The notes beneath the pieces are model-generated. The model ran no database searches. It saw nothing but the letters and a program-made list of their open reading frames with translations, and was not told the origin of the DNA. The translations under genes were made by a program, and so were the position numbers. A DNA stretch of 1,291 nucleotides from NCBI RefSeq assembly GCF_003334255.1, contig NZ_QOWU01000166.1; one strand, given 5' to 3'. Positions 1 to 1,291 of the stretch are shown piece after piece (the stretch's first letter is position 1; the number at the start of each line of letters is the position of its first letter). Source of the stretch: Escherichia coli (GTDB lineage Bacteria; Pseudomonadota; Gammaproteobacteria; Enterobacterales; Enterobacteriaceae).

Positions 1-171
1 GCGCGCCTTGATTTATTAACCGGTAAACGGGTGGTGTCTGTCCAGAAAGATGGTCGCAGAATTGAATATACGGCGGCCTCTCTGGATGAGCTTAACCGGG
101 CGATCAATGATGCTGAGTTGGTACTGGGGACAACCCGCCGTCGCCGTCGTCCGCTGGGAGTGAGGTTATGA
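1..171 (+). CDS. W: Head-tail joining / head completion protein, gpW family; 3' end only, start lies upstream of the window
   Basis: Frame +1 is open from base 1 to the TGA stop at 169-171 and translates to ARLDLLTGKRVVSVQKDGRRIEYTAASLDELNRAINDAELVLGTTRRRRRPLGVRL*. This resembles the C-terminal part of lambda gpW as I recall it (...[52 protein letters not shown]), including the TGKRV.[10 protein letters not shown] core and the arginine-rich tail. Its position directly upstream of the portal gene matches lambda gene order (A-W-B). The match is from memory, not from a search. Confidence 0.85.
   Translation, partial: ARLDLLTGKRVVSVQKDGRRIEYTAASLDELNRAINDAELVLGTTRRRRRPLGVRL
157..165 (+). promoter_or_regulatory. 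Probable ribosome-binding site for the portal gene, embedded in the last codons of the W-like gene
   Basis: The sequence GGAGTGAGG at 157-165 contains GGAG (157-160, 7 nt before the ATG at 168) and GAGG (162-165, 2 nt before it). The purine-rich element is at a typical distance from the start codon. Seen directly in the sequence; function is inferred. Confidence 0.55.
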
Positions 172-1291
172 AACGAAAGCCTGTCCTGATTGATGTGAAC
201 GGCGTTCCGCTTCGGGAGAGTCTCAGCTACAACGGGGGTGGTGCAGGATTTGGCGGGCAAATGGCAGAGTGGTTGCCACCCTCGCAGAGTGCCGATGCGG
301 CCCTGCTGCCCGCGTTGCGTCTGGGGAATGCCCGTGCAGATGATCTGGTGCGCAATAACGGAATAGCGGCCAATGCGGTGGCCCTGCATAAGGATCACAT
401 TGTCGGGCATATGTTTCTGATTAGCTACCGTCCGAACTGGCGCTGGCTGGGGATGCGGGAGACCGCGGCAAAAAGTTTTGTCGATGAGGTGGAGGCGGCC
501 TGGTCAGAATACGCAGAAGGGATGTTTGGTGAGATCGACGTGGAAGGGAAACGCACGTTTACGGAATTTATCCGTGAAGGTGTGGGCGTTCATGCGTTTA
601 ACGGCGAAATCTTTGTGCAGCCGGTCTGGGATACGGAGAGCACGCAACTGTTTCGTACGCGTTTTAAAGCCGTGAGTCCGAAACGGGTGGACACGCCAGG
701 ACACGGTATCGGGAACCGTTTTCTGCGGGCCGGGGTGGAGGTTGATCGATATGGCCGTGCCGTTGCGTACCATATCTGTGAGGATGATTTTCCTCGCTCC
801 GGGAGTGGACGATGGGAACGGATCCCGCGTGAACTTCCCACCGGGCGTCCGGCCATGCTGCATATTTTCGAGCCGGTGGAGGACGGGCAGACCCGTGGGG
901 CCAACCAGTTTTACAGCGTCATGGAACGGCTGAAGATGCTCGATTCCCTGCAGGCAACACAGCTTCAGTCGGCCATTGTTAAAGCCATGTATGCAGCGAC
1001 GATTGAAAGTGAACTTGATACCGAAAAGGCCTTTGAATATATCGCCGGCGCGCCACAGGAGCAGAAGGATAATCCGCTTATTAATATTCTGGAGAAGTTT
1101 TCCAGCTGGTATGACACGAATAACGTGACACTGGGCGGTGTCAAAATTCCGCACCTTTTCCCTGGTGATGATCTGAAACTACAGACTGCGCAGGATTCAG
1201 ACAATGGATTTTCTGCGCTTGAACAGGCGCTGCTGCGGTATATCGCCGCCGGTCTTGGCGTTTCCTACGAACAGTTGTCCCGTGATTACTC
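168..1291 (+). CDS. B: Phage portal protein, lambda gpB family; 5' start present, 3' end runs past the window
   Basis: ATG at 168-170 opens a frame with no stop to the window end (374 complete codons). Translation begins MKRKPVLIDVNGVPLRESLSYNGGGAGFGGQMAEWLPPSQSADAALLPALRLGNARADDLVRNNG... and includes HIFEPVEDGQTRGANQFYSVMERLKMLDSLQATQLQSAIVKAMYAATIESELDT and LQTAQDSDNGFSALEQALLRYIAAGLGVSYEQLSRDY. These blocks are near-identical to lambda gpB as I recall it (GGGSGFGGQ, GNARADDLVRNNG, FEPVEDGQTRGAN.FYSVME.MKMLD.LQ.TQLQSAIVKAMYAATIESELDT, LQTAQD.DNG.S..EQ.LLRYIAAGLGVSYEQLSR). A Shine-Dalgarno-like GGAG/GAGG sits just upstream of the ATG. Confidence 0.95.
   Translation, partial: MKRKPVLIDVNGVPLRESLSYNGGGAGFGGQMAEWLPPSQSADAALLPALRLGNARADDLVRNNGIAANAVALHKDHIVGHMFLISYRPNWRWLGMRETAAKSFVDEVEAAWSEYAEGMFGEIDVEGKRTFTEFIREGVGVHAFNGEIFVQPVWDTESTQLFRTRFKAVSPKRVDTPGHGIGNRFLRAGVEVDRYGRAVAYHICEDDFPRSGSGRWERIPRELPTGRPAMLHIFEPVEDGQTRGANQFYSVMERLKMLDSLQATQLQSAIVKAMYAATIESELDTEKAFEYIAGAPQEQKDNPLINILEKFSSWYDTNNVTLGGVKIPHLFPGDDLKLQTAQDSDNGFSALEQALLRYIAAGLGVSYEQLSRDY

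What the first reader, a model, noticed from the sequence alone, without database searches (positions are those of the whole stretch)
168..1291. Lambdoid head module, probably a prophage or phage of an enterobacterial host; flanking gene order is predictable
The pairing of a W-like gene with a gpB-like portal, with very high conservation in the core portal blocks, places this window in a lambda-type head assembly operon. From lambda gene order (Nu1-A-W-B-C-Nu3-D-E), the terminase large subunit should lie immediately upstream of base 1, and a prohead protease/scaffold (gpC-like) should lie downstream of the portal. This matters for context: any accessory or cargo genes would be in the flanks, not in this window.
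Basis: partly seen in the sequence, partly recalled or inferred. Interest (0 to 1): 0.3.

Follow-up and report, generated by a model that had tools for sequence, protein, structure and literature searches.

The report
Phage 21-type portal and adaptor genes
This window holds the end of a head-tail adaptor gene and the first 70% of a portal gene from a well-known phage 21/lambda-type E. coli phage or prophage, found in about a third of complete E. coli genomes, so it is ordinary.

Summary
The finding is correct and ordinary. Bases 1-171 encode the last 56 residues of a gpW-type head-tail adaptor. Bases 168-1291 encode residues 1-374 of a 530-residue lambda-family portal. The two genes are joined by an ATGA stop/start overlap, with a GGAG ribosome-binding site at 157-160. 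The window differs by one synonymous base from Escherichia phage PhiR12_2_star, is 96.6% identical to phage 21, and matches 1863 of 5426 complete E. coli genomes. The portal scores 488.6 bits on TIGR01539 portal_lambda (cut-off 172.7), hits PF05136, and matches the solved lambda portal gpB at E 2e-147 (60.6% identity). The adaptor passes NF047331 and matches solved lambda gpW. One relative is a chromosomal prophage with an integrase 23 kb upstream. Against phage 21, 36 of 44 substitutions are synonymous. One refinement: this is the phage 21 (Jouyvirus) head-gene lineage, not lambda's own. The 216-codon antisense ORF at 504-1154 hits a PHROG of unknown function, but it is a shadow ORF and not a gene. 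There are no Rfam or promoter hits. Novelty: already known.

The parts
1..171 (+). 3' part of the gpW-type head-tail adaptor (Ad1) gene: codons 13-68 of 68, plus the TGA stop at 169-171. It includes the conserved Arg32 (nt 58-60) and the Arg-rich C-arm.
   Evidence: Translation. NF047331 47.1 bits (cut-off 33) and phrog_75 E 1.2e-23. PDB 1hyw/8k38 gpW E 9e-14. It is an exact suffix of the 68-aa W protein of PV340551. Lambda gpW domains and the Arg32-DNA contact come from PMC10721106.
157..160 (+). GGAG ribosome-binding site for the portal gene, 7 nt upstream of the ATG.
   Evidence: Read directly from the sequence. The same position is annotated as a ribosome_binding_site in the phage 21 record OL657228 (locus 2813-2816).
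168..171 (+). ATGA overlap: the portal start ATG (168-170) overlaps the W stop TGA (169-171). This arrangement is typical of translational coupling.
   Evidence: Sequence. The same 4-nt overlap is annotated in L001, L002 and L003. Coupling itself is inferred.
168..1291 (+). 5' 70% of the lambda-family portal gene (gpB homologue; phage 21 portal): codons 1-374 of 530, cut by the window end. By offset to lambda gpB (query n = lambda n+3): wing 228-905, stem 906-995, clip 996-1184, stem 1185-1259, start of the second wing segment 1260-1291. The tunnel loop and crown lie beyond the window.
   Evidence: It is an exact prefix of the 530-aa portal of PV340551. Domain limits are transferred from the lambda cryo-EM paper PMC10721106. 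Purifying selection: 36 synonymous and 8 non-synonymous changes against phage 21 across both reading frames of the window, with 33 of the 39 changes inside the portal gene at codon position 3.
1050..1109 (+). The stretch of the portal least conserved against lambda gpB (about 10% identity over 20 residues). It lies in the clip domain and overlaps the surface loop (lambda residues 303-319) that is disordered in the lambda structure.
   Evidence: Sliding identity, alignment, lambda loop and domain definitions.
504..1154 (-). A 216-codon antisense ORF. It is a shadow ORF produced by the portal gene's codon usage and is not a gene.
   Evidence: Listed and hits phrog_19427. However, 39% of synonymous-codon shuffles give an open run of equal or greater length. 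Of 27 nt changes against phage 21, 23 alter the antisense product and only 3 alter the sense product. An internal stop is present in phage 21 and in PhiR5_1. Identity to the lambda-type equivalents falls to about 33%. No record annotates it.

Best explanation
The window is a piece of the late (head-assembly) operon of a phage 21-type lambdoid temperate phage of Escherichia coli. It may come from a free phage genome or from a resident prophage. It contains the 3' end of the gpW-homologue gene (head-tail adaptor) and the 5' 70% of the gpB-homologue gene (portal). By homology with lambda, twelve portal subunits form the ring at one capsid vertex. That ring nucleates prohead assembly, docks the terminase-DNA complex, and serves as the channel for DNA packaging and ejection. 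After packaging, twelve adaptor subunits bind under the portal. Their C-terminal arms add a strand to a portal beta-sheet, and Arg32 contacts the DNA end. This creates the site for the FII stopper and then the tail. The two genes are read from one late transcript and are probably translationally coupled through the ATGA overlap. Shown here: gene identity, family membership, near-identity to known phages, gene order in relatives, and purifying selection. Inferred from lambda: stoichiometry, contacts, assembly order and coupling.
For: The window has 99.9% nt identity to phage PhiR12_2_star, with one synonymous difference, and 96.6% to phage 21. It is present in 1863 of 5426 complete E. coli genomes. 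Portal: TIGR01539 equivalog 488.6 bits against a cut-off of 172.7, PF05136 E 2.2e-88, PDB lambda gpB E 2.2e-147. Adaptor: NF047331 above cut-off, PDB gpW E 9e-14, Arg32 conserved. Gene order is Nu1-A-W-B-C/Nu3-D-E-FI-FII-Z-U-V-G-T-H in three independently annotated relatives. Integrase and excisionase genes are present in the EC2 prophage. Against phage 21 there are 36 synonymous and 8 non-synonymous changes. The mechanism comes from the lambda virion cryo-EM paper PMC10721106 and from the packaging pathway summarised in PMC4669245.
Against: Nothing contradicts it. There are three limits. The window's own flanks are unavailable, so operon context is shown only in relatives. The portal gene is truncated by the window end, so the intactness of its last 156 codons in this copy is unknown.
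Confidence: 0.97

Rival explanations
1. The genes are what they seem, but this copy sits in a defective (cryptic) prophage or a recombinant prophage remnant that no longer makes virions. In that case the portal is not functionally expressed.
For: Genomes that carry the segment have a median of 2 copies and up to 5, and many E. coli lambdoid prophages are known to be defective (established knowledge). The closest chromosomal copy (EC2) lies in a prophage with a frameshifted tail assembly gene and a truncated DUF1327 gene. The two ends of that prophage adjoin different chromosomal neighbourhoods and share no repeat of 14 bp or more.
Against: Within the window both reading frames are intact. The proteins are 100% identical to those of PhiR12_2_star, a deposited complete phage genome recorded with E. 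coli C as host. The substitution pattern shows continuing purifying selection.
Confidence: 0.2
2. The long antisense ORF at 504-1154 (216 aa) is a real overlapping gene encoded inside the portal gene.
For: It is the longest complete ORF in the window. It matches phrog_19427, a family of unknown function, at E 3e-81, so other annotators have called it.
Against: It lies in the codon-aligned antisense frame, where stops arise only from the sense codons TTA, CTA and TCA, and there are only 3 of those in 374 codons. In 39% of synonymous-codon shuffles the open run is as long or longer. Against phage 21, 23 of 217 antisense residues change while only 3 of 217 sense residues change, and an internal stop appears. 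PhiR5_1 shows the same pattern. No listed phage record annotates a gene there. No promoter-like site was found.
Confidence: 0.02
3. The segment belongs to a phage satellite (PICI-like) or a phage-plasmid that borrowed lambda-type head genes, not to a lambdoid phage or prophage.
For: Seven of 3029 matching places in E. coli genomes lie on plasmids. Enteric chromosomal islands are known to exploit lambda/21-type packaging (PMC9026076, title and abstract).
Against: 3022 of 3029 places are chromosomal. The three relatives inspected all carry full lambdoid head and tail modules, with lysis genes upstream. As far as I know, PICIs of this type have not been described with a portal and W pair.
Confidence: 0.01

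Closest known systems
Escherichia phage PhiR12_2_star (PV340551), genes 'head-tail joining protein W' and 'portal protein B'
   Same: 1290 of 1291 nt are identical. Both protein segments are 100% identical, and the overlap and ribosome-binding site are the same.
   Different: One synonymous base differs (window T239, record C). Whether the window comes from this phage or from a sibling prophage cannot be told.
Phage 21 head genes (OL657228, genus Jouyvirus; M81255): proximal head completion protein and portal
   Same: 96.6% nt identity, the same gene order and the same overlaps. Only 8 amino-acid differences occur in 430 aligned codons.
   Different: There are 44 nt differences, including W L40S and R47C and portal K4T, S39A, S158T, I181M and R210F (the window residue is given first).
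Bacteriophage lambda gpB portal and gpW adaptor (PDB 8k38, 8xot and others; 1hyw)
   Same: Same families, same lengths (530 vs 533 aa; 68 vs 68 aa), same operon position and almost gap-free alignment. Four portal blocks are at least 85% identical, and gpW Arg32 is conserved.
   Different: Portal identity is only 60.6% and adaptor identity 52-56%. No lambda record appears among the megablast hits, which need roughly 85% nt identity. The clip-domain surface loop is essentially unrelated. The adaptor C-arm is more arginine-rich (RRRRRP vs QRRRGP).

Membership tests
Lambda-family phage portal (TIGR01539 portal_lambda / Pfam PF05136 Phage_portal_2) | Sequence scores above the curated family threshold | tested here: met
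   TIGR01539 equivalog 488.6 bits against a cut-off of 172.7, even with only 327 of 457 profile positions present. PF05136 E 2.2e-88 over model positions 2-331 of 354.
Lambda-family phage portal (TIGR01539 portal_lambda / Pfam PF05136 Phage_portal_2) | Close sequence homology to a portal with a solved structure, implying the canonical portal fold (wing, stem, clip, crown) | tested here: met
   phmmer against the PDB: lambda Portal protein B (8k38) E 2.2e-147, residues 5-374 against 7-377 with a single one-residue gap. Domains are defined in PMC10721106. The crown and tunnel loop lie outside the window.
Lambda-family phage portal (TIGR01539 portal_lambda / Pfam PF05136 Phage_portal_2) | Full-length intact gene (about 530 aa) | not testable with these tools
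   The window ends at codon 374. The identical prefix belongs to a 530-aa protein in PV340551 and in E. coli EC2.
Lambda-family phage portal (TIGR01539 portal_lambda / Pfam PF05136 Phage_portal_2) | Forms a dodecameric ring at one capsid vertex and docks terminase | not testable with these tools
   This is a biochemical and structural property. It is inferred from lambda.
gpW-type head-tail adaptor Ad1 (NCBIfam NF047331 phage_HTJ / phrog_75) | Sequence scores above the curated threshold and matches solved gpW | tested here: met
   NF047331 47.1 bits against a cut-off of 33, phrog_75 E 1.2e-23, PDB 1hyw E 9e-14.
gpW-type head-tail adaptor Ad1 (NCBIfam NF047331 phage_HTJ / phrog_75) | Conserved DNA-clamping Arg32 and a basic C-terminal arm that contacts the portal | tested here: met
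   The gap-free alignment with lambda gpW keeps G30-R31-R32 (nt 52-60) and an RRRRRP C-arm. The roles of these residues come from PMC10721106.
Lambdoid head-assembly operon (Nu1-A-W-B-C/Nu3-D-E) | Large terminase gene directly upstream of W, and protease/scaffold, decoration and major capsid genes downstream of the portal | tested here: met
   Met in three relatives at 96.6-99.9% nt identity. The window's own contig is not available, so this is an inference for this copy.
Phage 21-type (Jouyvirus-like) head module, as opposed to Lambdavirus | Nucleotide-level identity to the phage 21 head genes | tested here: met
   96.6% over all 1291 nt to OL657228 and M81255. Lambda-type portals are about 60% identical at protein level, and no lambda record is among the megablast hits.
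Integrated prophage | Integrase/excisionase and att junctions on the same element | tested here: inconclusive
   In the closest chromosomal copy (E. coli EC2), integrase and excisionase genes lie 23 kb upstream. No direct repeat of 14 bp or more was found between the two ends. The window's own contig cannot be inspected.

The most novel reading that the evidence does not exclude
The one stretch of this portal that is essentially unrelated to lambda gpB (aa about 295-314, nt about 1050-1109) lies in the clip domain, the domain that faces outward beneath the capsid toward the adaptor ring and presumably the docked terminase. This loop could be the determinant that makes phage 21-type and lambda-type terminases, or adaptors, specific for their own proheads. 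The window would then mark an allele class that limits which head modules can recombine among co-resident E. coli prophages.
Probability: 0.15. Interest if true: 0.25.

Novelty: already known. Interest (0 to 1): 0.05.

Why it matters
It matters only as context. It fixes the window as the W-B junction of a phage 21-type head operon, so any cargo or accessory genes of interest must be sought elsewhere on the contig. Likely places are downstream of Q, or beyond the tail-fibre genes as in the EC2 relative. It also yields a small annotation lesson. One PHROG of 'unknown function' (phrog_19427) looks like a collection of antisense shadow ORFs inside portal genes. Two others (phrog_3993, phrog_27056) look like N-terminal portal fragments.

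Tried and rejected
1. Rfam scan of both strands at E up to 1 gave no match.
2. The promoter scan found 0 sites against 0.9 expected. One terminator-like hairpin was found on the minus strand against 1.4 expected, so it is chance level.
3. The antisense ORF 504-1154 was tested as a real gene because of its phrog_19427 hit. It was rejected on the codon-shuffle result, the substitution pattern and the internal stops in relatives.
4. A search for the paper describing the PhiR12 phages found nothing with that name.
5. I looked for att-like direct or inverted repeats between the two ends of the EC2 prophage and found none of 14 bp or more.
6. Structure prediction and the large protein database searches were not run. 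The match to a solved structure (E 2e-147) and to curated equivalog models already settles identity.

Full report
**What is in the window**

Reading frame 1 is open from base 1 and ends at TGA 169-171. It gives ARLDLLTGKRVVSVQKDGRRIEYTAASLDELNRAINDAELVLGTTRRRRRPLGVRL. An ATG at 168-170 overlaps that stop (ATGA) and opens a frame that runs 374 codons to the end of the window. A GGAG sits at 157-160, 7 nt before the ATG. The same position is annotated as the ribosome-binding site in the curated phage 21 record. The ORF lister did not show the portal ORF only because it runs off the window end.

**Identity of the two products**

- **Portal (374-aa product).** It scores 488.6 bits on the NCBIfam equivalog TIGR01539 portal_lambda, whose cut-off is 172.7. 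It also hits Pfam PF05136 'Phage portal protein, lambda family' at E 2.2e-88 and phrog_21 'portal protein' at E 8e-133. Against solved structures, it matches lambda 'Portal protein B' (8k38 and six further entries) at E 2.2e-147. Residues 5-374 align with lambda 7-377 with a single one-residue gap.
- **Adaptor (56-aa upstream product).** It passes NF047331 'phage head-tail joining protein' at 47.1 bits against a cut-off of 33. It hits phrog_75 'head-tail adaptor Ad1' at E 1.2e-23 and solved lambda gpW (1hyw) at E 9e-14.

**Closest relatives**

- **Phage records.** Megablast finds 20 records, all from Escherichia. The best is PhiR12_2_star (PV340551) at 99.9%. It differs from the window by one synonymous base, T239 against C. 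Phage 21 (OL657228, genus Jouyvirus; also M81255) is 96.6% identical over all 1291 bases.
- **E. coli genomes.** 1863 of 5426 complete genomes carry the segment. 3022 of 3029 places are on chromosomes, with a median of 2 copies per positive genome and a maximum of 5.
- **Lambda.** No lambda record appears among the megablast hits. At protein level the portal is 60.6% identical to lambda gpB, and the adaptor 52-56% identical to gpW.

So this is the phage 21 allele of the lambdoid head module, not lambda's own.

**Evidence of selection**

Against phage 21 there are 44 nt differences across the window, 36 synonymous and 8 non-synonymous in the two sense frames. Within the portal gene, 33 of the 39 differences fall at codon position 3.

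In PhiR12_2_star, in the E. coli EC2 chromosome and in phage 21, the order is as follows:

- small terminase;
- large terminase, which ends 20 nt before the position matching window base 1 and overlaps the W start by 17 nt;
- W (68 aa);
- portal (530 aa);
- S49 protease/scaffold (C/Nu3), which overlaps the portal end by 11 nt;
- decoration protein D, major capsid protein E, FI and FII;
- the tail genes Z, U, V, G, T and H.

Lysis genes and the antiterminator Q lie further upstream. The window's W fragment is an exact suffix, and its portal fragment an exact prefix, of the PV340551 proteins. In EC2 the element is a chromosomal prophage with a tyrosine integrase and an excisionase 23 kb upstream, a LexA-family repressor, and replication genes. 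The prediction is therefore met in every relative examined. For the window's own contig it remains an inference, because that contig cannot be seen.

**How it works (from lambda; inferred for this copy)**

The lambda virion cryo-EM study (PMC10721106) supplies the mechanism.

- Twelve gpB subunits form the portal at one vertex. The domains are wing (24-249 and 368-452), stem (250-279 and 343-367), clip (280-342) and crown (453-511).
- Twelve gpW subunits form the adaptor ring below the portal. The ring is held mainly by electrostatic contacts, and by the gpW C-arm (55-68) adding a strand to a gpB beta-sheet.
- gpW Arg32 clamps the DNA end.
- The FII stopper ring and then the tail attach below the adaptor.

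Terminase bound to the cos end docks on the portal, and its ATPase drives DNA into the prohead (PMC4669245).

With the offset query n = lambda n+3, the window covers the first wing segment (nt 228-905), stem (906-995), clip (996-1184), second stem helix (1185-1259) and the first residues of the second wing segment. The tunnel loop and crown lie beyond the window. Arg32 of the adaptor (nt 58-60) and a basic C-arm are conserved. The ATGA overlap suggests translational coupling of W and the portal; that is an inference.

**Conservation pattern against lambda gpB**

- Four blocks are at least 85% identical: aa 51-74, 231-259, 255-289 and 349-374.
- The least conserved stretch, about 10% identity over 20 residues, is aa about 295-314 (nt about 1050-1109).
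- That stretch falls in the clip domain. It overlaps the surface loop, lambda 303-319, that is disordered in the cryo-EM map.
- Whether the loop sets terminase or adaptor specificity is speculation.

**The antisense ORF**

The longest complete ORF in the window is antisense, at 504-1154 (216 aa). It hits phrog_19427, a family of unknown function, at E 3e-81. I tested whether it is a real gene and rejected it for these reasons:

- It lies in the codon-aligned antisense frame. There, stops arise only from the sense codons TTA, CTA and TCA, which occur 3 times in 374 codons.
- Shuffling synonymous codons gives an open run at least as long in 39% of trials.
- Against phage 21, 27 nt changes in this span alter 3 sense residues but 23 antisense residues, and they introduce an internal stop. 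PhiR5_1 behaves the same way.
- Antisense identity to the lambda-type equivalents falls to about 33%, against 60% for the sense frame. No listed record annotates a gene there.

It is a shadow ORF. The PHROG probably collects such miscalls.

**Other scans**

There was no Rfam match at E up to 1. No promoter-like site was found, and the one terminator-like hairpin is at chance level.

**Verdict**

This is already known biology: a very common E. coli prophage head module, near-identical to deposited phages and homologous to proteins with solved structures. Interest is low.

Noticed in passing
window 504-1154, minus strand: A 216-codon antisense ORF inside the portal gene matches phrog_19427 ('unknown function') at E 3e-81. 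Tests show it is a shadow ORF, so that PHROG is probably a family of miscalled antisense ORFs.
   Followed up: yes
window 168-740 (portal aa 1-191): phrog_3993 (E 3e-106, profile 195 long, matches aa 1-191) and phrog_27056 (E 2e-27, matches aa 5-81) are both labelled 'unknown function'. They match only the N-terminal part of the portal, so they look like families built from truncated or split portal gene calls.
   Followed up: no
window 1050-1109: This is the least conserved stretch against lambda gpB, at about 10% identity. It lies in the clip domain and overlaps the loop that is disordered in the lambda cryo-EM structure. It is a possible specificity determinant.
   Followed up: partly
window 795-796: Two adjacent base differences from phage 21 change portal residue 210 (Arg here, Phe in phage 21). 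The residue maps to the lambda wing loop 208-218, which is reported to change shape to fit portal-capsid contacts.
   Followed up: no
window 136-150: The adaptor C-arm has five consecutive arginines (RRRRRP), where lambda has QRRRGP and phage 21 has a Cys at one of these positions (window R47, phage 21 C). The top of the adaptor is the electropositive face that binds the portal.
   Followed up: no
L004 5626-7691 and L005 12166-21008 (E. coli EC2, NZ_CP058571.1): The prophage carrying the closest chromosomal copy has its integrase next to a yecE-like DUF72 gene (cmoA/torZ neighbourhood). Its other end adjoins an ompW fragment and yciE/trpA. No repeat of 14 bp or more is shared between the two ends. 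This suggests a hybrid prophage or an inversion between two prophages. The right end carries a YadA-like adhesin, an S6-family autotransporter peptidase and an IS3 element.
   Followed up: partly
L001 765-2747; L002 786-2747: A 650-660-aa SASA-family carbohydrate esterase ('unknown protein encoded within prophage CP-933V') lies between Q and the lysis genes. From my own knowledge, Stx-converting phages carry their toxin genes in this region, just downstream of Q.
   Followed up: no
ON470596.1 17249-18334 (hit H47): A 62.7%-identical portal homologue is annotated there as 'plasmid partitioning protein'. This is probably a misannotation.
   Followed up: no
E. coli complete genomes: Genomes that carry this segment hold a median of 2 and up to 5 copies at 95% identity or more, and 7 places lie on plasmids. 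Multiple co-resident prophages therefore share the same head module, which gives a substrate for recombination between prophages.
   Followed up: no
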